DNA of 64,000 nucleotides from Dictyostelium discoideum (taxonomy: Eukaryota), in contig CM000150.2 of the NCBI GenBank assembly GCA_000004695.1, positions 4,288,001-4,352,000 of the forward strand, in the 5' to 3' direction. Position numbers and translations under genes: made by a program. Below are positions 5,863 to 64,000 of the stretch, one piece after another. The notes beneath the pieces were generated by a model. It had not been told where the DNA came from. It worked only from the letters and a program-made list of their open reading frames with translations, and did no database searches. Position 1 is the stretch's first letter; each line of letters starts with the position of its first letter.

Positions 5863-7737
5863 ATGGATGAAGAAGATTCTTACTCTCAATCTCAAGAATT
5901 AGAAGTTTTAAAATCAATCTATGGTGATGATTTTTTCTCTCAAATGGAATATTATGAAAATGATATTCATAACCATAGTAATGAAAATTATAGTAGTGGT
6001 TGTAGTGGAAGTGAAGATGAAGATTTAGAAGATAAACATTCTCAAAACAAAACTTCAACTACAACTACAACCACTACCACCACAACAACAACTACAACAA
6101 CAACAACAACTACTACTACAACTTCATCATATAATGATGATGATAATAATAATAACTATAATGATTATGAAGATGATGATGATGATGATAGTTTTGATGA
6201 AAAATATAAATATAACGTAAGTATTTTAAATAATAATGATAATAATAATAATATAATAATAATAATAATTATAAAATTAAATAATAATAATTATTATTTT
6301 TATTAACATTTTAAAAAAAAATAGATAAAAATTAAAATTGATTTACCAAATGAATATAAAATTAAAATTAAAGATGAAGAATTAGAATATCCAATAGTAT
6401 GTTTACCATCAATTAATCTTGGATTTATTTATCCAAAAGGATATCCAAGTAAAAGAGCACCAATCATTACATTATCATCATGTTGGTTAACATTGAAACA
6501 AATGAAATCATTATTGGATGAATTAATAAATAATCAATGGGAGTGTGGAGAATTGGTAATTTTTAAATATGTAGATTGGTTAAAAACAAATTTGGTCGAT
6601 TATTTAGGATTAAGAGAATCATTGACATTAGATGGTGAACCAATTGATTTCGAGAGTGAATTATGGGATCAAGGTGTATCATGGGATCATGAAGCTGATT
6701 GGCAATCGATGCAAAATGCAATTCCAATGTTAAGATCATACAATTCACATGAAGGTAAAAGAATATTTGATCAACAGTATCATTGTTGTTTAATTTGTGA
6801 TCATGAAGGTTGTGGTCAAACTGATTTCACTCAAATATCAACATGTGCTCATTTCACTTGTAATGAATGTATAGCTAGTATTATCAATGTAAATTTAAGT
6901 AGTGGTCAATTGGCATCAATTAAATGTCCAACACTTGGTTGTAAACAGTTGTTGGATCTTTCAATCATTAGAAAGTATGTTTCATCCGATCAAGATTACA
7001 ATAGATATCAAGATTATTTAAAACAACAAAGAGGTTTAGTAAAATGTTTAAGATGTCCTGATGGTTGGAGTTTTGTTGATAACTTAACAAGATCAACCTT
7101 TTGTTCAACTTGTTATTACTCATTTTGTTTATTTTGTCGTAATCAATTTCATCCTGGTGTAAATTGTGATGATAACAATGCAAAAAGAGGTGACAATAAT
7201 AATAGAATCGATAGAAATAATCCAACTGGTCTTGGTTTAATTAGAATTTGTCCAACTTGTGGTTGTTTAATTACCAAATCTGAAGGTTGTAATAAAATGA
7301 CTTGTTCAAATTGCTCAACTCGTTTTTGTTGGCTTTGTTTGAAAGCAAACATTGACTATAACCATTTCGGTTTACGTTGTGAACTCTTTCAATTCACCCC
7401 TTCAAGAATTAACCATGCCAATAGAATCGTTAACAGTGGTGTTGTCGATGCTACAACCGTTTGTAGATGTAAACAACTTCTTTATCGTCATTCAGGTTCA
7501 AATACAGTGGTTTGTCGTAATTGTGATGCTACCTATTGCTTCCTTTGTAAAACTAAAATTAAAGGTACAAGACATTTTATGAATAGTGATACTTGTACTC
7601 AAAATGGAAATCCTAAAACTTTTAAACCTGATAAATCTTATGTATTTTATAATTTATCAAATAATGAAACAATTACACCAGAAATTAAATCTAAAAAAGA
7701 TTATTATATTTTTGAAGGTTTAATTATAAAAAGATGA
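5863..7737 (+). CDS. RWD domain + RING-IBR-RING (RBR) E3 ubiquitin ligase, RNF14/ARA54-like. Two exons: join(5863..6216,6325..7737).
   Basis: Exon 1 encodes the start of an RWD domain (LEVLKSIYGDDF...) and ends at a GTAAGT donor at 6217. Exon 2, after the AG at 6323-24, continues the RWD domain (PKGYPSKRAPIITLSS) and then a C3HC4 RING, an IBR and a RING2 (CPTCGCLITKSEGCNKMTCSNCSTRFCWLC). The frame is continuous and intron phase 0. Confidence 0.8.
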
Positions 7738-10278: not shown

Positions 10279-10313
10279 ATTCTAATCATATGATTTTTAA
10301 AATCGATAGTTTG

Positions 10314-10387
10314 TATTCAGAGCGGGAATCGAACCCACGACCTAATCCGTGTTAAGGATTCGTGATAACCGACTACACCATCCGAAC
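10314..10387 (-). tRNA. tRNA-Val (anticodon AAC).
   Basis: The reverse complement GTTCGGATGGTGTAGTCGGTTATCACGAATCCTTAACACGGATTAGGTCGTGGGTTCGATTCCCGCTCTGAATA folds as a cloverleaf. It has a D-arm GTGTAGTCGGTTATCAC, the anticodon loop CTTAACAC, and a T-arm GTGGG-TTCGATT-CCCGC. It aligns base-for-base with the metazoan tRNA-Val-AAC layout. It is identical to the copies at 13392 and 50908. Confidence 0.85.
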
Positions 10388-11010: not shown

Positions 11011-11651
11011 ATGTCAGCCTTTATATATAATAACAGTAATAATAATAATTCGATGCGTCTTTGTGTTATGGGTGATGGTGGTGTTGGTAAAACATCGATT
11101 ACAATCCAATTTATTTCAAACCATTTTGTAAATTGTTATGATCCAACAATTGAAGATTTATATAGAAAACAATGCCTAATTGATGATCAAGTTTATATGT
11201 TAGATATACTTGATACAGCCGGTCAAGATGAATTAAATGCAATTAGAAACCATTGGATAAAATCATGTGAAGGTTTCATATTAGTTTATTCGGTTACATC
11301 AAGATCATCATTTGACCAAATTCAATCATTTTTAGATCAAATTAAATTTTTAAAAAGTGAAAAAGTTCCAATTATAATGATTGCCAATAAATCAGATTTA
11401 GATGATGAAAGACAAGTAACATATCAAGAAGGTGAAAATTTTGCCAATCGATTTGGTATGTCATTCATGGAAGTTTCTGCTAAATATAAATTAAACATTG
11501 ATGAAGTTTTTAATCAAATAGCCCAACATTGTGTGAAAAGAAGATGTGATCACATATATATTAATAAATCAATAAGGAATAAGAATTCAATATTTAAAAA
11601 ATTTAATCAAAAATTAAATAATACATTTCATTCTATTTGTAAAATGATATA

Positions 11652-11652
<1 letters not shown>
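11011..11652 (+). CDS. Ras-family small GTPase (213 aa) with a CKMI CAAX box, resembling the Dictyostelium rasU-rasZ subfamily.
   Basis: It has a G1 motif GDGGVGKT, a switch/G3 motif DTAGQDE, NKSDL and SAK motifs, and a C-terminal CKMI. The ATG is at 11011. The track ORF starts earlier only because poly-T reads as Phe. Confidence 0.8.
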
Positions 11653-11700
<48 letters not shown>

Positions 11701-12315: not shown

Positions 12316-12960
12316 ATGGCATCATATAAAAATAATAATTTAGTACGTCTTTGTATTATGGGTGATGGTGGTGTCGGTAAAACAGCAGTAACAATTCAAT
12401 TTATTTCAAATCATTTTGTTTATTATTATGATCCAACAATTGAAGATTCATATCGTAAACAATGTGTAATTGATGATCAAGTTTATATGTTAGATATATT
12501 AGATACAGCAGGTCAAGATGAATTAACCGCTATGAGAGATCAATGGATTAGATCATGTGAAGGTTTCGTTTTAGTTTATTCAATTACATCAAGATCGTCA
12601 TTTGATCAAGTTCAATTCTTTAGAGAACAAATTATCCGTGTATTAGATAGAGATGATGTACCAATTATGATGATTGGTAATAAATCAGATTTAGATGATG
12701 AAAGACAAGTAACCTATCAAGAAGGTAAAGATTTAGCACGTTGTTTAGGTATGTCATTCATGGAAGTCTCCGCTAAAAGTAGAGCAAATATTGAAGAAGT
12801 TTTCAATGAAACTGTTCGTTCTGTTAAAAGAAGAGAAGAATCATTATTAAAAAAAGATAAATCAAAAGATGGAAAAGATATTAAAAAGAAAAATTCAATA
12901 ATTAAAAAATTAAATCAAAAAGTAAATAATACTAAAACCTCAATTTGTAAAATGATGTAA
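12316..12960 (+). CDS. Ras-family small GTPase paralog (214 aa) with a CKMM CAAX box.
   Basis: About 75% identical to 11011..11652 ([27 protein letters not shown]...). Tandem duplicate in the same orientation. Confidence 0.85.
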
Positions 12961-13132
12961 ATAACATTTGAAAAAAAAAAAAAAAAATCTGTAAAATATG
13001 TATTCTGTAAATAATAAAATGTACAATAAAAATTAAATCTTTCGATGTGGAATTGGAAGAACGATTTATTTAAAAATAGTTTTTTGTTTTTTTTTTTTTT
13101 GAAATTCCTCATAATCTTTAATATTTTTGGTT

Positions 13133-13323
13133 TAGTTTATGAGGGCATAAAGAGTTTATGTATGGGGTAATATACCACTATTTAGTGGGATCAGGTGAAC
13201 AATCCTAGTTTCATGTATTCGAATTCGATTGCCTTGTTGTTGAATTTTTGTAATTTTAGCTGGACAATAAATTTGATTGTTCAAAAAAGAGTGGTGTAAT
13301 CCATACATAAACTCCTTAAGCCC
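13133..13323. repeat. Imperfect 28-bp terminal inverted repeat flanking a 135-bp GC-richer core. Hairpin, MITE or ncRNA-like element.
   Basis: The left arm TATGAGGGCATAAAGAGTTTATGTATGG is at 13133-13160. The right arm CCATACATAAACTCCTTAAGCCCTCATA is at 13296-13323 and is its reverse complement with 3-4 mismatches. The element lies 70-260 bp 3' of the tRNA-Val. Confidence 0.4.
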
Positions 13324-13356: not shown

Positions 13357-13391
13357 ACGGTCTTACAATCATTAACTTTAAAAGTTAGTTG

Positions 13392-13465
13392 TATTCAGAG
13401 CGGGAATCGAACCCACGACCTAATCCGTGTTAAGGATTCGTGATAACCGACTACACCATCCGAAC
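13392..13465 (-). tRNA. tRNA-Val (anticodon AAC), second copy.
   Basis: Sequence identical to the copy at 10314..10387. Confidence 0.85.
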
Positions 13466-39218: not shown

Positions 39219-40630
39219 ATGTATTATATAAATAACTCTACTGTTACAACGACACCAGCGCCAACACAAACCCCATACGACTCGAGAAGGTGTTACTGTG
39301 ATCCAGTATTTCAATTAGAAGAGGGAGAAGAATGTAACCCTGAAGGATGTTTAACATTATCAATTATATTTTTAATATTATATTTAATTCCAATTGTAAT
39401 TTGTATTTCTCGTTTCTATGAAATGAGAAATAGAAAAGATAGTGCATGGTCAATAGTTTCATTAGTTTTCTTATTTATAACAAGTTTGAGTATGTTTTTT
39501 TAAATAATAATTATTTTTCAAAAAAATTAAAAAAAAATTTATCTAAACACTTTTTTAGGTGAAAAAAAAAAAAAAAAAAAAAAAAAATTATCTGTAAAAA
39601 AAAAAAAATACTAATATTATTATTATTATTATTATTATTTAATAAAAAATTTATTATAGTTAGAATAATAAGATCAATATTATTAATAGTTAAATTTGAA
39701 AATTATTTAATTATGGGTCTTACATTTGTTTTACCTTTAGGTATTTTAATTTGTTCATATTTCAATACACTTTATGTTTGGGTTAAAATTATACATCACA
39801 TTAATTTTTCGAAGATGGTATCAAGAGTATTCCCATTCTTAGGTAAAGTTTTAATAGGTTCTCAAATTGTTTTAATGGTTTTATTAATTGCAACATGTTT
39901 AGCTGGTTGGTCGTTTTATGCAACAAATACACTTTTATTAGTTTTCTTGATTTATGGAGGGTAAAAAAAAAATTAAATATATATTATTTATTTTTAGAAT
40001 TATTCATATAGAATTTATATTTATTTATTAACATTTTATATTTATTTTTTTTAAAAAAAAAAAAAAAAAAAAATTAGTGTTGGATGTATTGTATTTGTAA
40101 AAATGATTTGGCAAGAATATAGAGATTTATCAGATAAAGATTGTGGTGTATTCAGTCAAACTAGTCATGAAAGAATTCAAAAAGTTTTAAAATTATCATC
40201 AACTGCAATCGTTATAACAATATTAACAGTTGGTATGGTAATTTGGAGTTTTAAACTTGAAGGTAAATTACCAATGTCTCAAATTTTAGCATATAATTTT
40301 ATTGGTCGTTTCATTGAAATCGTTTGGATTGGTGTAATGTTATTAGTATTAGCACCAAAATTGCAATCATGGGGTCAAAATTCCTCTTCAAGAACAAATA
40401 GAAACTCTAATCTCGATGATTTAAGTGATTCTTCAATTGACATTGAATCAAATGATGATTCTAGTAAAGAAAAAGATTTAACCTCTTGTAATAATAGCTC
40501 AAATTTAAATATTAATACAAATCATAATACTAGTTCAAGTCCAAATGTAAATAATAATTCAAATCAATCTTTAGAAGTTTCTGAAAATTTAAATAACAAA
40601 GATGATTTAATAGGTGGTGCTGATGTTTAA
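39219..40630 (+). CDS. Multi-pass membrane protein. Three exons: join(39219..39489,39690..39960,40078..40630).
   Basis: Three ATG or alternative-start ORFs link in phase through GTATGT and GTAAAA donors and the AATAG/ATTAG acceptors. There are several hydrophobic helices and a S/N-rich C-terminal tail. The family is not identified. Confidence 0.45.
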
Positions 40631-50907: not shown

Positions 50908-50981
50908 GTTCGGATGGTGTAGTCGGTTATCACGAATCCTTAACACGGATTAGGTCGTGGGTTCGATTCCCGCTCTGAATA
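50908..50981 (+). tRNA. tRNA-Val (anticodon AAC), third copy.
   Basis: Sequence identical to the two minus-strand copies. Confidence 0.85.
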
Positions 50982-51020
50982 CAAACAAACAGTTTTTAGA
51001 TATTGATGAATAGAATCGCA

Positions 51021-58843: not shown

Positions 58844-59837
58844 TTAAAATCTACCTTTAACATTTGAAGAAATATCTCTTAAGAAATTATAAAATGATGG
58901 ACCAGCATTATTTTCTTCATCAATTAAAAATTTAGTGAATTCAATTGGATTTTCAATTAATTTACCTTTAAGATATTGAATTTCTGGTACAATTAAACGA
59001 TCTTGTTTACTATTTGAAATGGTTTGACGAATTAAACTTTCAGGTGGTGGTGGGAATTGATGATGTGAAGAAACCTCTTGAAGATTATAGAAAACCACAA
59101 GTTGATCAAAACTATCAACTAAATAGATATGAGATGTACTTGTGAGTATTGTATTTTGAGATAATGGTAAATATTTTGAAGCTAAATTATTTGGTGCACC
59201 ATAACTATACAATACTGGATAGATTGAACGATGTAATAAACGTGGCTCTAGTGTTGAATATAAACATTGATGATAAATCCATTCATCAGATTTCTTCTTT
59301 ATGGTTGATGCTTCAATATCGGTTGTTAGTTCCCTAAGTATTGGTGATTTCATCAATGCAAATACGTATCTTGGTAATGGTCTTAAATGAGAGACTTGTG
59401 AAAAGTTTACATCAATAGATGAAGTTACCGATGACAATATTACAACGTTTTCGTTATATTTTGTAATGATATTCTTTAACCAATCAACTAGTGAAATTCT
59501 TGCCTCTGAAATACCTTTTTCTAAAGTTTCTCTTATTATCTTATTTGTAAGTAATGAAATGGTTGTCTCTAAATCAATTGAATTAAATACTTCAATTGGT
59601 GTATCTGCAACTGGTACTCTAATATTAAATATATGTAATCTTTTCTCTATAATTCTATCAGAATTGCTTGTTGAATTAATAGCACTACTACTATTACCAC
59701 TTGATTTTAAAATATTATTATTTGATGAAAATAAAGTTGGTGATATATTATTTTGTTGTTGATCATTTGATGATCCAATTGGTGGTAAATATGAATAAGA
59801 AAATGCAATTTGTATATTTGGTGAAAAATCCTTACTA

Positions 59838-60829: not shown

Positions 60830-61734
60830 TAATAATGTAACGATAATAACAATAATAATGATAATAATATTTTAAAATATTATATATCTTACATTTACTA
60901 AAAACTTTTCAATTGATAAAATATCAGAGAAATTAAAATCATTAATATTTTCAACGAATTTAATTAAAGGTGTTGAAGTATTTAAATTGTATAAACCTAT
61001 TCTTGTTGAATAAGTTATTAAACCAAATAATGCGTTATTTGGTAATGCATGTATCAATGCTTCTAATCCTTGTGTGATTGCATCATGTTGTTCTTCATTA
61101 CCTGAATAATCTACAACTGCAATATAAATTGGATTATTTATCAATGGTATCATTGAATATGGTATTGAATCTGGTAATGATGATGACGATGATGATTCTT
61201 GTTGAGTATTATCATAATCACCACCACCACCACTACTACTACCATCAAATTGGTCTTGATCAACTAATAATTCAATTGAATAATTTGATAATTCTGGTAA
61301 TGATTCTCTATTTGGTCTTGCATATCTTGATATTTGTTGTTGTTGTTGTTGTTGATTGTATTGGTTATTATTATAATTATCATTATCACTATCATTATCA
61401 TTATCATTATCAATATTAAAACCTGTATAATTTATCTTATTTAATGATTCACATATATTACATCTCCAACCACCACGTTCAAATTTCACTAAATTATTTA
61501 TATAAGCAAAACATTTTTTACATCTACCTATGTTTTTTGAATTTTCTTGATACCTAAAATTGTTTTTAAATGGTTGAATTACACATCCAAATATTGATCC
61601 TGATCCCTCTTTTACCTCTACTATAAATTAAATTGTTTTTTTTTCTATTAGTAACTTTTGAAACTATATTGTTATTATATTGTACCATTTATATTTACAA
61701 TTAACAGGGAATCTTTGAGAGGAGAATCTAACAT
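58844..61734 (-). CDS. Sec23-like COPII coat family protein (divergent Sec23/Sec24 fold, 790 aa). Six exons: complement(join(58844..59834,59948..60145,60235..60493,60615..60765,60893..61617,61686..61734)).
   Basis: Zn-finger GRCKKCFAYINNLVKFERGGWRCNICESLN. Trunk-domain segments PIYIAVVDYSGNEE...ALFGLITYSTRIGLYNL and YRKLAERAIEVGAHFDIFAVGDKFFGFDSIKFLSTITGGQIYRY. The C-terminal segments SIYPVLYSYGAPN...HIYLVDSFDQLVVFYN...SFYNFLRDISSNV are colinear with Sec23. All six exons are phase-consistent. The total length matches Sec23, about 765 aa. Confidence 0.7.
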
Positions 61735-62289
61735 TCATCAGATTTTTATCTTATTAAACAGTGCACAAACACTTCAATTAAATTTAAAATTTAAAATTAA
61801 AAAAAAAAAAAAAAAAAAAAAATTTCATTTTTTTTTTTTTTTTTTTTTTTTAATATTACAAAAATTAAATCATAATATTTAATTTTAAAATAAATATTTA
61901 TTTGGTATTAAAAATTGAAATAATGGTTCCAAAATAAATTTTAATATTATAACTTTAAAAGACTTATTTATTTATTTGTGTTTGGGGAAAATAAAAAAAA
62001 AAAAAAAAAAAAAAAAAATGAAAATAAATAATATTAACTGTATAATTTTTTTATTCTTTTTTAATTTTATCTTAAATGTAATAAACTCAATATTTCTTTT
62101 AAACTTTTATTTTATTTTATTATTTTAAAAAAAAAAATTAATATCTTTTCCTTTTATCATTTCAATAAATTAGAATTTAGCCCTTTTTTAAATATTCAAT
62201 TTTCAAAGGTTATAAATATATTGTATATAATTTCAAAGAAATTATCAATAACATCAAATGACCAATAACAATAAAGTCAAGTTAAAAAA

Positions 62290-62320
<31 letters not shown>

Positions 62321-62713
62321 CTCTATATTTTTTAAATTAATTATAAAAGCCAGATATCGAATACAATTAAACTCCAAATTAATAAAAAAAGAATCTTTCG
62401 ATTCTAAAAAATCGATTAACCTTATAATCACTATAGATATTTAAAATAAAATTAAATACCTAGCAAAGATTTGTGAAATTTATTTTCAACTTGCACCAAA
62501 TTGTCAAAGATTGGATTTTTTTTTTTTTTTTTTTTTTTTTATAAAATATATTATTTTATTTTGAAATATTAAAATATTAATAAAAAAAAAATAAAAAAAA
62601 AGAAAAAAATCAAAAAGTATGGATTTTTTTTTTTATTAATTATATTTTACTAATACATAAAAAAACCAATTTAATTTTATTACATTTTAATTCAAATAAT
62701 AAACAAAAAAAAA

Positions 62714-62986
62714 ATGGCCAAATGTGAAGCTTGTGGTGGTATTGCATCTGTTACTTGTGGTGTAACTGGTTGTGGAAATAAAGGATGTCTTAATTGTCCA
62801 TATATGACAGCAGTTTCAAGATTTACAAATACTTTCAATGCAAGAAATGTTACAAATACAATTAATCGTAATTCTCCATTCGGTGCAAACATGTCAAATA
62901 CTATGTTTGAATGTGGCGATTGTAGAAATGCTTCCAACACCTCTTCTTCCAACAACTCCACTTCATCTTCTTCTGATGACTCTTAA
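62714..62986 (+). CDS. Small Cys-rich protein (90 aa) with GC-shifted codon usage. Hypothetical.
   Basis: ATG ORF MAKCEACGGIASVTCGVTGCGNKGCLNCPYM... with a Ser-rich C-terminus. An overlapping minus-strand ORF of similar size exists. The coding strand was chosen on the ATG and on codon usage. Confidence 0.3.
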   Translation: MAKCEACGGIASVTCGVTGCGNKGCLNCPYMTAVSRFTNTFNARNVTNTINRNSPFGANMSNTMFECGDCRNASNTSSSNNSTSSSSDDS

Positions 62987-63278
62987 TAAAATAATAAATT
63001 AAACTCCAAATAATTCCATATTAATAAAAAATAAAACTAACTTGGTTATACTATTTAAAAAATTAACAAAAAAAAAAAAAAAATTTAAAAAAAAAATAAA
63101 CAAAAACTAGAATTTTTTATTAAAATTAATAATGTTTTTGGAAATAAATTAATACTTTTATTTATAAAGCAATAAAAAAAAAATGAAAAGGTTTTTATTT
63201 TTTCATTTTTTTTTTATTTTTTTTTTTTAATTTTTATTTTTTTATTTTTTTTTTTTTTCCCTAATAGCGCCACTTGGT

Positions 63279-63354
63279 GGTGCAACGTTGCGATATTCAT
63301 TAAATTTTGACTCTAAAACGATTTCTTTGAAAATTAATATCGCAACGTTGCACC
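63279..63354. repeat. Perfect 18-bp inverted repeat (GGTGCAACGTTGCGATAT / ATATCGCAACGTTGCACC) with a 40-nt spacer. A GC-rich stem-loop island.
   Basis: Read directly from the sequence. Each arm contains the palindrome AACGTT. The flanks are pure A/T. Confidence 0.6.
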
Positions 63355-64000
63355 AAAACAAAAAATCTCCATTGATTTCCAAAATAATTATTTTAATTTT
63401 TTTTTTTTTTTTTTTTTTTAATTTAATTGGTGGGTATTATTGGTTGGTTCAATTTCAATTAAAAAAACACTAAAAACTAAGAAAAAAAAAAGGCACCTAT
63501 TAGTGAATGATTTTATTTTATTTTTTTATTTTTAGCTTTGTAGTTTTTTAAATTTATTAATATTACCTTATAATTTCTTAATATTAGCGGAATCATTTTA
63601 CAGGATTAAAACAACTTTTTTTTTTTGTTTTAATTTTATTTAATTTTTTAAATTTGTTGAACTTGAGGGATAAATACATCGGTCCCTCTTTGAAATACTT
63701 GACGATCATGCGAACGAAGAACATCACTATCTCTTTGAGAATCTTCTTTCCAAGCTTCAAATATTTAGTCTACAAAATATTTAAATAATATTTATTCCAC
63801 CATTGTATATATTTTTGTTACCCCTTTTTTTTTTTTTTATTTTTATACACAATTGCAGGGATGTGTATTCATGATAAATTTAATTTTTCAAAAAGAAGGA
63901 AGTTGTAGATCATTTGCTGTTATTCGTGAACTCATAACCGGTCAAAAATAATAAAAATCTTTTAAAAAGGAAGAAATAATATTTTTATTTATATTTTCAA

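What the first reader, a model, noticed from the sequence alone, without database searches (positions are those of the whole stretch)
63279..63354. Perfect 18-bp inverted repeat with AACGTT cores in a GC island
GGTGCAACGTTGCGATAT and its exact reverse complement are separated by 40 nt, in an otherwise pure A/T intergenic region downstream of a small Cys-rich ORF. A perfect 18-bp stem is unlikely by chance in this composition. Candidate roles are a structured ncRNA, a terminator-like hairpin, a dimeric transcription-factor site, or a MITE terminus.
Basis: seen in the sequence. Interest (0 to 1): 0.5.

Follow-up and report, generated by a model that had tools for sequence, protein, structure and literature searches.

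The report
Perfect inverted repeat between tandem paralogues
A real, far-from-chance 20-bp perfect inverted repeat lies in the non-coding spacer between two young duplicate genes of Dictyostelium discoideum; it fits no known RNA or transposon class, looks like a recent local inverted copy of a GC-rich box, and has no demonstrated function.

Summary
The perfect arms are 20 bp (63278-63297 / 63336-63355), or 23 of 24 positions out to 63301/63332. Each arm contains the 10-bp palindrome GCAACGTTGC. About 6e-9 such repeats are expected per 64 kb.

The window is D. discoideum AX4 chr1:4288001-4352000. The repeat lies 292 nt after the stop of orphan gene DDB_G0270164 and 1269 nt before its tandem paralogue DDB_G0270166. 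On the minus strand it is 99-176 nt upstream of the mapped 5' end of a published antisense RNA.

It is not a tRNA, an Rfam family, a class I RNA, a snoRNA, a catalogued miRNA, coding sequence, a terminator or a MITE with target-site duplications. There is no other copy in the window or in the viral, metagenome, prokaryote or plasmid collections.

The left arm continues into a GC-rich flank, while the right arm sits in A/T. This suggests the right arm is a secondary reverse-complement copy made by replication template switching. My best guess (0.35) is a doubled palindromic protein-binding box. Neutral scar (0.25) and hairpin RNA (0.2) remain open. Interest is modest.

The parts
63259..63277 (.). 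GC-rich left flank (CCCTAATAGCGCCACTTGG, 58% GC), contiguous with the left arm. Together with that arm it forms the presumed ancestral GC box.
63278..63297 (.). Left arm of the perfect 20-bp inverted repeat (TGGTGCAACGTTGCGATATT).
63282..63291 (.). Nested 10-bp perfect palindrome GCAACGTTGC, copy 1.
63298..63335 (.). 38-nt spacer or loop at background composition (21% GC). Its outer 4 nt on each side extend the repeat to 23 of 24 positions.
63336..63355 (.). Right arm (AATATCGCAACGTTGCACCA), flanked by A/T on both sides. It is the presumed secondary reverse-complement copy.
63342..63351 (.). Nested 10-bp perfect palindrome GCAACGTTGC, copy 2, 60 nt from copy 1.
63183..63258 (.). Near-homopolymer tract (T-rich on +, A-rich on -) that separates the island from the mapped 5' end of the antisense RNA.
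62889..63179 (-). Context: published 290-nt antisense RNA (chr1:4350889-4351179, minus) overlapping the 3' end of DDB_G0270164. On the minus strand the hairpin island lies 99-176 nt upstream of its mapped 5' end.
   Evidence: supplementary files of PMC5295588
62714..62986 (+). Context: DDB_G0270164, a 90-aa Cys-rich orphan protein. Its tandem paralogue DDB_G0270166 lies at window-equivalent 64624-64878 (+), outside the window.

Best explanation
This is a single-copy, locally generated inverted duplication, not a gene of any known RNA class and not a mobile element. A pre-existing GC-rich box (about 63259-63301) contained the palindrome GCAACGTTGC. A 20-24-nt piece of that box was copied in reverse complement 38 nt further on, most simply by a short replication template switch. 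The result is a perfect hairpin- or cruciform-capable repeat and, at the DNA level, two identical palindromic 10-bp boxes 60 bp apart. If the repeat does anything, I propose that it acts as double-stranded DNA: a doubled binding site for a homodimeric DNA-binding protein. It sits in the unusually long (1637-bp) regulatory spacer between the tandem paralogues DDB_G0270164 and DDB_G0270166, 99-176 bp upstream of the antisense RNA that overlaps DDB_G0270164. Shown: the repeat, its non-random nature, its uniqueness in the window, the nested palindromes, the genomic position, and the failure of all tested ncRNA and transposon memberships. Inferred: the template-switch origin, which arm is ancestral, and all of the protein-binding function.
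For: The repeat is perfect over 20 bp, with no G-T or G-U pair and no mismatch, and matches at 23 of 24 positions. This is expected for a one-step reverse-complement copy or for a DNA-level constraint, and is unusual for an old RNA stem in an AT-biased genome. The context is asymmetric: the left arm continues into a 58% GC flank, while the right arm is embedded in a 21% GC loop and a 26% GC flank. Template switching is a documented one-step source of perfect stems (PMC8794818, PMC5453318). Each arm carries a perfect 10-bp palindrome, which has p of about 0.011 for a random 20-mer of this composition. That is the classic form of a homodimer site and makes the element independent of orientation. 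The published gene and transcript coordinates place the repeat in the spacer between tandem genes, 99-176 nt upstream of a mapped minus-strand 5' end. All tested RNA-gene and transposon features are absent, the arm is missing from four miRNA data sets, and neither the hairpin nor 63560-64000 is coding. It is established knowledge, not tested here, that cis-regulatory elements of Dictyostelium promoters are typically short G/C-containing boxes in very AT-rich DNA, often repeated or inverted.
Against: No protein is known to bind GCAACGTTGC or CAACGTTG in Dictyostelium; the literature searches found only unrelated oligonucleotides and primers. The motif occurs nowhere else in 64 kb, even with one mismatch, so there is no evidence of a regulon. 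A factor that read only the palindrome would not need the non-palindromic flanks (TGGT and GATATT) to be conserved in inverted orientation. That conservation points to the mutational event, not to selection. The antisense RNA is weakly expressed (33 against 195 in the paper's table), and its true start may lie elsewhere. Without an outgroup, neither the direction of copying nor any constraint is demonstrated. GC-containing palindromes of 10 bp or more are not rare in the window (15 observed, 11.8 expected).
Confidence: 0.35

Rival explanations
1. Neutral mutational scar. The origin is the same (a template-switch or fold-back repair copy in a young, fast-evolving lineage-specific locus), but there is no function. 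The GC-rich sequence persists only because the event, and possibly the whole island, is recent.
For: The arms are perfect, the loop and right flank have background composition, and the repeat is single-copy in the window. The locus is evolutionarily young: DDB_G0270164 and DDB_G0270166 have no homologue outside D. discoideum among 5.8 billion proteins. There is no promoter element, transcript, catalogue entry or known binding motif. Template switches create such structures without selection.
Against: It does not explain why a 43-nt stretch of 50-58% GC exists in a 7-12% GC spacer in the first place. That stretch is not coding, not a decayed copy of the neighbouring gene, and not detectably foreign DNA. 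It also does not explain the nested 10-bp palindrome (p about 0.011). Strong AT-biased mutation should erode unconstrained G/C quickly.
Confidence: 0.25
2. Transcribed hairpin RNA. This would be either a young miRNA-like Dicer (DrnB) substrate or a structured 5' element of the minus-strand antisense transcript. In the second case the assembled antisense model stops at the unmappable A/T tract just short of the hairpin.
For: The fold is very stable on both strands: -0.41 to -0.44 kcal/mol/nt at 37 C and -41 to -44 kcal/mol at 22 C, with z of -5.5 to -6.0. That passes the energy criterion of below -0.2 kcal/mol/nt used for Dictyostelium miRNAs. A 20-24-bp stem can yield one 21-nt duplex. Most Dictyostelium miRNA loci are intergenic, a mapped pri-miRNA start is preceded by a long T run, and 14 T directly precede the island on the + strand. 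Dictyostelid miRNAs turn over rapidly and are mostly recent innovations. An antisense RNA maps about 100 nt away on the minus strand, beyond a homopolymer tract that would break read assembly.
Against: The arm sequence is absent from the mature-miRNA tables of Liao 2018, Edelbroek 2024 and Meier 2016. No lncRNA or antisense model in the held files of Rosengarten 2017 covers 63259-63400. There is no DUSE and no Rfam family above noise. The 30-38-nt AT-rich loop and the complete lack of bulges or G-U pairs are unlike the published precursors of 100-150 nt. The left-right asymmetry of the flanks is not expected for an RNA gene.
Confidence: 0.2
3. Miniature foldback or MITE-like element, or a pair of solo terminal inverted repeats left by a DNA transposon.
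For: Two perfect 20-bp terminal inverted repeats enclose a short AT-rich interior. Dictyostelium has hairpin-forming DNA transposons such as thug-S.
Against: There is no target-site duplication of 2-10 bp at any of five tested boundary choices. There is no second full or partial copy in 64 kb, even with 3 mismatches. At 78 bp it is extremely small. The GC-rich left flank lies outside the repeat, which is not expected for an insertion into AT-rich DNA.
Confidence: 0.05

Closest known systems
Hairpins created by short replication template switches (Loytynoja & Goldman 2017, PMC5453318; Monttinen & Loytynoja 2022, PMC8794818)
   Same: A perfect reverse-complement copy of a nearby 20-24-nt segment, made in one step. 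It is single-copy, lacks target-site duplications, and has one arm in its native context and the other embedded in unrelated sequence.
   Different: The defining evidence, an ancestral or outgroup sequence that lacks the copy, could not be obtained here. The nested palindrome is not required by that mechanism.
G/C-containing cis-regulatory boxes of Dictyostelium promoters, for example the G-box/CAE elements bound by GBF and the inverted TTGA repeats bound by STATa (recalled from established literature, not tested here)
   Same: A short GC-richer box in extremely AT-rich non-coding DNA, present in two copies with dyad symmetry, within about 200 bp of a transcript start.
   Different: The sequence GCAACGTTGC matches none of those motifs, no binding factor is known, and no second occurrence was found in 64 kb.
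Dictyostelium miRNA precursors (mir-1176, mir-1177 and others; Liao 2018, PMC6161686; Edelbroek 2024, PMC11014262)
   Same: An intergenic hairpin with strong folding energy, a T run upstream, and a stem long enough for one 21-nt duplex.
   Different: It is not in any catalogue. The stem is perfect, without bulges, and only 20-24 bp long with a 30-38-nt loop, whereas the published precursors are 100-150 nt. No small-RNA evidence exists.
Dictyostelid class I RNAs (Kjellin 2021, PMC7919456)
   Same: A small GC-richer island in intergenic DNA whose two ends pair.
   Different: Class I RNAs are 42-65 nt with a 6-bp terminal stem, an 11-nt motif and a DUSE about 60 nt upstream. This element has a 20-bp stem, spans 78 nt and has no DUSE.
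MITEs and foldback elements (for example thug-S in Dictyostelium)
   Same: Terminal inverted repeats around an AT-rich interior.
   Different: There is no target-site duplication, no other copy in the window, and the element is far smaller.

Membership tests
Class I RNA (Dictyostelia) | DUSE ([A/T]CCCA[C/T]AA) about 60 nt upstream of the RNA start, or of a TGTG box | tested here: not met
   There is no exact DUSE within about 23 kb of the hairpin (nearest at 39711). The nearest one-mismatch hits (63444 and 63435, minus strand) are uninformative, because such hits occur at 2.5 per kb. No AAATGTG box is present.
Class I RNA (Dictyostelia) | Length of 42-65 nt with a short (6-bp) terminal stem | tested here: not met
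   The stem is 20 bp perfect (23 of 24) and the element spans 78 nt.
Class I RNA (Dictyostelia) | Conserved 11-nt motif next to the 5' half of the stem | tested here: inconclusive
   A motif recalled from memory (CCTTACAGCAA) has no hit with 2 or fewer mismatches near the locus. The paper text I could read does not spell out the motif.
miRNA precursor (Dictyostelium criteria, Liao 2018) | Hairpin folding energy below -0.2 kcal/mol/nt with at least 60% of the duplex paired | tested here: met
   Energy is -0.41 (+) and -0.44 (-) kcal/mol/nt and the stem is fully paired.
miRNA precursor (Dictyostelium criteria, Liao 2018) | At least 10 precise 5p and 3p reads, with DrnB dependence | not testable with these tools
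   Raw reads cannot be reached. Indirectly negative: the arm sequence is absent from the miRNA tables of three studies.
MITE / DNA-transposon remnant | Target-site duplication flanking the terminal inverted repeats | tested here: not met
   No 2-10-bp direct duplication is present at any of five boundary choices.
MITE / DNA-transposon remnant | Multiple dispersed copies | tested here: inconclusive
   There are no other copies in the 64-kb window with up to 3 mismatches. The rest of the 34-Mb genome could not be searched.
Box C/D or H/ACA snoRNA | C (RUGAUGA) and D (CUGA) boxes next to the terminal stem, or a pseudouridylation pocket about 14-16 nt from an ACA box | tested here: not met
   No C or D box occurs on either strand in 63240-63400. 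One ACA lies at 63358, but the uninterrupted 20-bp stem leaves no pocket.
tRNA or any Rfam family | Covariance-model match at or near the gathering score | tested here: not met
   ARAGORN finds none here. There is no Rfam gathering hit. The best permissive hit is MIR5998 at 21 bits against a gathering score of 180.
Intrinsic-terminator-like hairpin | GC-rich stem with a short loop, followed directly by a T run | tested here: not met
   There are 0 terminator-like sites in 62900-63700. The loop is 30-38 nt, and A-rich sequence follows the stem on both strands.
Template-switch-generated inverted repeat | Exact reverse-complement copy of an adjacent segment, with one arm in native context | tested here: met
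   The arms are identical at 20 of 20 positions (23 of 24). The left arm is continuous with a 58% GC flank, and the right arm is flanked by 21-26% GC.
Template-switch-generated inverted repeat | An ancestral or outgroup sequence that lacks the second arm | not testable with these tools
   No other dictyostelid or D. discoideum strain genome can be reached.
Paired site for a dimeric DNA-binding protein | Dyad-symmetric core present in more than one copy | tested here: met
   GCAACGTTGC is a perfect palindrome and occurs twice, 60 bp apart. The chance of a nested palindrome is p of about 0.011.
Paired site for a dimeric DNA-binding protein | A known cognate factor, or recurrence of the motif in other regulatory regions | tested here: not met
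   No other occurrence exists in 64 kb with 1 or fewer mismatches. The partial look-alike at 62473-62501 scores 29, against an AT-rich background of 26. No such motif is reported in the literature.

The most novel reading that the evidence does not exclude
The hairpin is one member of an undescribed family of GC-rich palindromic foldback elements scattered through the AT-rich D. discoideum genome, analogous to the mobile GC clusters of yeast mitochondrial DNA. Alternatively, it is a lineage-specific hairpin RNA at the 5' end of the antisense transcript that feeds the DrnB/RNAi pathway to control the young DDB_G0270164/DDB_G0270166 gene pair. Uniqueness in a window that covers only 0.2% of the genome, and absence from catalogues that require at least 10 reads, exclude neither reading.
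Probability: 0.1. Interest if true: 0.6.

Novelty: new member of a known kind. Interest (0 to 1): 0.3.

Why it matters
If the doubled palindrome is a real protein-binding module, it would supply a new cis-element, and a way to find its factor, in an organism where few transcription-factor motifs are known. It would also be a concrete case of a template switch duplicating a regulatory site next to newly born orphan genes. If it is transcribed, it would be a snapshot of a hairpin at the very start of miRNA-like evolution, in a lineage where miRNAs are known to turn over quickly. If it is a neutral scar, it is simply a clean example of how perfect stems arise in one mutational step, and a warning that a perfect GC-rich hairpin in AT-rich DNA is not in itself evidence of an RNA gene.

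Tried and rejected
1. Known RNA classes. tRNA scan, Rfam at gathering thresholds and permissive Rfam over 63000-64000 gave only generic hairpin noise.

2. DUSE-driven ncRNA gene. There is no exact DUSE, and the near-DUSE on the minus strand is meaningless at 2.5 hits per kb. None of the six exact DUSE hits in the window precedes a GC-richer RNA body.

3. snoRNA boxes, H/ACA layout and an intrinsic terminator were all absent.

4. Catalogued miRNA. The arm is absent from the supplements of Liao 2018, Edelbroek 2024 and Meier 2016. Hinas 2007 has no held supplement.

5. Convergent-gene terminator or roadblock. I first read 63655-63770 (-) as a coding exon of a convergent neighbour. This was rejected: no reading frame of 63560-64000, nor the ORF across the hairpin, matches any catalogued protein, and published coordinates show that the next gene is the tandem paralogue on the + strand.

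6. Centre of a large palindromic duplication. Apart from the arms themselves, no GC-containing similarity between 62000-63316 and 63317-64000 was seen in the readable part of that truncated output, and the neighbouring gene with its flanks (62401-63100) does not align to 63240-64000 above shuffled controls.

7. Decayed third copy of the Cys-rich gene as the source of the GC island. Alignment scores do not exceed shuffled controls.

8. Foreign DNA. There were 0 hits for the double-palindrome architecture in metagenome and viral contigs. One hit for a single arm (L001) is a 55% GC bacterial contig without the partner arm and is a chance match. There were 0 hits for flank plus arm in 185,579 prokaryotic genomes and none in plasmids.

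9. Known binding motif. Literature hits for GCAACGTTGC, CAACGTTG and AACGTT are primers, CpG oligonucleotides or arbitrary test DNAs, including the MatA/MatB paper.

10. Shared promoter motif with DDB_G0270164 (62473-62501). The score is only marginally above background.

11. Orthologous loci. The gene is not on record for contig look-up and has no orthologues.

12. Larsson 2008, the de novo GC-island ncRNA search, is not held.

Full report
OBSERVATION

The 18-mer GGTGCAACGTTGCGATAT is at 63279-63296, and its exact reverse complement is at 63337-63354. The perfect repeat is one base longer at each end of each arm: 63278-63297 / 63336-63355, 20 bp with a 38-nt spacer. With one mismatch it reaches 23 of 24 positions (63278-63301 vs 63332-63355).

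Each arm contains the self-complementary 10-mer GCAACGTTGC (63282-63291 and 63342-63351). That core is therefore present both as a direct and as an inverted repeat, 60 nt apart.

The window is 21% GC. Among 2236 perfect inverted repeats of at least 10 bp with a loop of at most 150 nt, only three have 4 or more G/C, and the runner-up is 14 bp. In 100 simulated windows the longest such arm was 16 bp with 4 G/C. The analytic expectation for a 20-bp repeat with 9 or more G:C pairs is 5.8e-9 per 64 kb.

As RNA the region folds at -33.8 kcal/mol (+ strand, z = -5.5) and -38.9 kcal/mol (- strand, z = -6.0). As DNA it folds at -25.1 kcal/mol (z = -7.5).

WHERE IT IS

The Cys-rich ORF 62714-62986 is DDB_G0270164 of Dictyostelium discoideum AX4 chromosome 1. 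The supplementary tables of Rosengarten et al. 2017 give DDB_G0270164 as chr1:4350714-4350986 (+), so the window is chr1:4288001-4352000.

The only homologue of this protein among 5.8 billion sequences is DDB_G0270166 (88% identical). That gene lies at chr1:4352624-4352878 (+), which is window-equivalent 64624-64878, just past the window end.

The hairpin therefore sits in a 1637-bp spacer between two tandem, lineage-specific paralogues. It is 292 nt after the first gene's stop and 1269 nt before the second gene's start. For comparison, the average intergenic distance in this genome is about 700 bp.

I had first read 63655-63770 on the minus strand as the last exon of a convergent gene. That was wrong. 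No reading frame of 63560-64000, and no ORF across the hairpin, matches any catalogued protein.

The same study annotates one non-coding transcript nearby: a 290-nt antisense RNA at chr1:4350889-4351179 (-), window 62889-63179, overlapping the 3' end of DDB_G0270164. On the minus strand the hairpin island lies 99-176 nt upstream of that mapped 5' end. An almost pure A/T homopolymer tract (63183-63258) separates the two. No transcript model in the held files covers the hairpin itself.

WHAT IT IS NOT

- tRNA or Rfam family. There is no tRNA and no Rfam family at gathering thresholds. Permissive scans give only generic miRNA-hairpin noise, 21 bits against a gathering score of 180.
- Class I RNA. 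These are 42-65 nt with a 6-bp stem, an 11-nt motif and a DUSE about 60 nt upstream. Here the stem is 20 bp and there is no exact DUSE within about 23 kb. The one-mismatch DUSE-like sites on the minus strand are uninformative, because such sites occur 2.5 times per kb.
- snoRNA. There are no C or D boxes, and the uninterrupted stem leaves no H/ACA pocket.
- Terminator. No T run follows the stem on either strand.
- Catalogued miRNA. The arm sequence is absent from the mature-miRNA tables of Liao 2018 (which list the sequences as DNA), Edelbroek 2024 and Meier 2016.
- MITE. No 2-10-bp target-site duplication exists at any of five boundary choices, and no other copy occurs in the window with up to three mismatches.
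- Centre of a larger palindrome, or a decayed copy of the neighbouring gene.
- Detectable foreign DNA. The double-palindrome architecture has no match in the metagenome or viral collections. A single-arm 20-mer hit (L001) is a 55% GC bacterial contig without the partner arm, at the expected chance rate. The flank-plus-arm 21-mer is absent from 185,579 prokaryotic genomes, and the island has no plasmid match.

ANATOMY THAT CONSTRAINS THE EXPLANATION

Three features stand out.

1. All 20 pairs are Watson-Crick, with no G-T pair, in a genome under strong AT-biased mutation. This fits a recent one-step copy or a constraint on double-stranded DNA better than a long-maintained RNA stem.

2. The element is asymmetric. 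The left arm is continuous with a 58% GC flank (63259-63277). The right arm is embedded in sequence of background composition, with a 21% GC loop and a 26% GC right flank. The simplest reading is that a GC-rich box at about 63259-63301 came first, and that the right arm is a secondary reverse-complement copy of part of it. Short replication template switches are documented to create such perfect stems in a single event.

3. The copied piece contains a perfect 10-bp palindrome. For a random 20-mer of this composition that has a probability of about 1%. GC-containing palindromes as such are not unusual in the window, with 15 observed against about 12 expected.

BEST EXPLANATION AND RIVALS

I favour, at 0.35, a DNA-level element. 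In this reading a template-switch copy doubled a palindromic protein-binding box inside the regulatory spacer of a young tandem gene pair, about 100-175 bp upstream of the antisense transcript.

The repeat, its uniqueness in the window and its position are shown. The origin and, above all, the binding function are inferred. No factor or recurrent motif supports them: the literature searches returned only primers, CpG oligonucleotides and arbitrary test DNAs, and the weak look-alike upstream of DDB_G0270164 (62473-62501) scores 29 against an AT-rich background of 26.

A neutral scar of the same origin (0.25) explains everything except why a GC-rich box and a nested palindrome are there at all.

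A transcribed hairpin (0.2) is supported by several points. The energy of -0.41 to -0.44 kcal/mol/nt passes the published criterion. The stem has a suitable length. A T run lies upstream, as at a mapped pri-miRNA start. Dictyostelid miRNAs turn over rapidly. The antisense RNA lies nearby. Against it stand the absence from every catalogue and transcript model that I could read, and the asymmetry of the flanks.

A MITE-like remnant (0.05) fails the target-site duplication test.

LIMITS

Those checks are a genome-wide copy count, conservation in related species and RNA coverage. Larsson et al. 2008, the one study that screened this genome for GC-island ncRNAs, is not held.

VERDICT

This is a genuine and statistically extreme feature, but it is single-copy as far as the window shows and remains uncharacterised. 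It is best classed as a locally generated inverted duplication, with a possible cis-regulatory role or a less likely hairpin-RNA role. It does not belong to any known Dictyostelium ncRNA or transposon family. Interest is modest (0.3). It would rise if reads, conservation or further genomic copies were found.

Noticed in passing
window 10313-10387 (-), 13391-13465 (-), 50908-50982 (+): Three sequence-identical tRNA-Val(AAC) genes. The copies share only about 120-165 nt at 87-93% identity, that is the gene plus short flanks, and not larger duplicated blocks.
   Followed up: partly
window 11037-11674 and 12327-12987: A 666-nt repeat pair at 79% identity lying between two of the tRNA-Val genes. 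Each copy carries an exact DUSE (ACCCATAA at 11066-11073 and 12356-12363, minus strand), but the sequence 60-140 nt downstream is only 6-9% GC, so no obvious ncRNA body follows. None of the six exact DUSE hits in the window precedes a GC-richer RNA-like segment.
   Followed up: partly
window 13152-13314: A 163-nt GC-richer segment closed by a perfect 14-bp inverted repeat (GAGTTTATGTATGG / CCATACATAAACTC), 77 nt from the tRNA-Val gene at 13391-13465. It is the second most notable GC-containing inverted repeat in the window and could be a small structured RNA or a transposon remnant.
   Followed up: no
window 63647-63761 and 63889-63950: Two further GC-richer islands (35-42% GC) in the same DDB_G0270164/DDB_G0270166 spacer. 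They have no protein match in any frame, no Rfam hit and no similarity to the neighbouring gene; the first island, the only one folded, shows no unusual fold (z = -0.9). Their nature is unknown.
   Followed up: partly
window 62714-62986 (+) and chr1:4352624-4352878 (outside the window): DDB_G0270164 and DDB_G0270166 are a tandem pair of small Cys-rich orphan proteins (88% identical) with no homologue outside D. discoideum among 5.8 billion proteins. In the Rosengarten 2017 expression table DDB_G0270164 peaks sharply at the second time point of each of the row's two 13-value series.
   Followed up: partly
window 62889-63179 (-): A published 290-nt antisense RNA (chr1:4350889-4351179) overlaps the last 98 nt of the DDB_G0270164 coding sequence and its 3' UTR. 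It is weakly expressed relative to the sense strand (33 against 195 in the paper's table).
   Followed up: partly
window 5993-6006 / 6064-6077: A perfect 14-bp inverted repeat (GTAGTGGTTGTAGT / ACTACAACCACTAC) inside what looks like low-complexity coding sequence. It is probably a by-product of repetitive codons rather than a structural element.
   Followed up: no
window 60872-61489 (-) and 58844-59437 (-): Long minus-strand ORFs with a CxxC zinc-finger-like start (GGWRCNICESLN) and a trunk-like segment. From memory they resemble a Sec23/Sec24-family coat protein split by introns. This was not tested.
   Followed up: no
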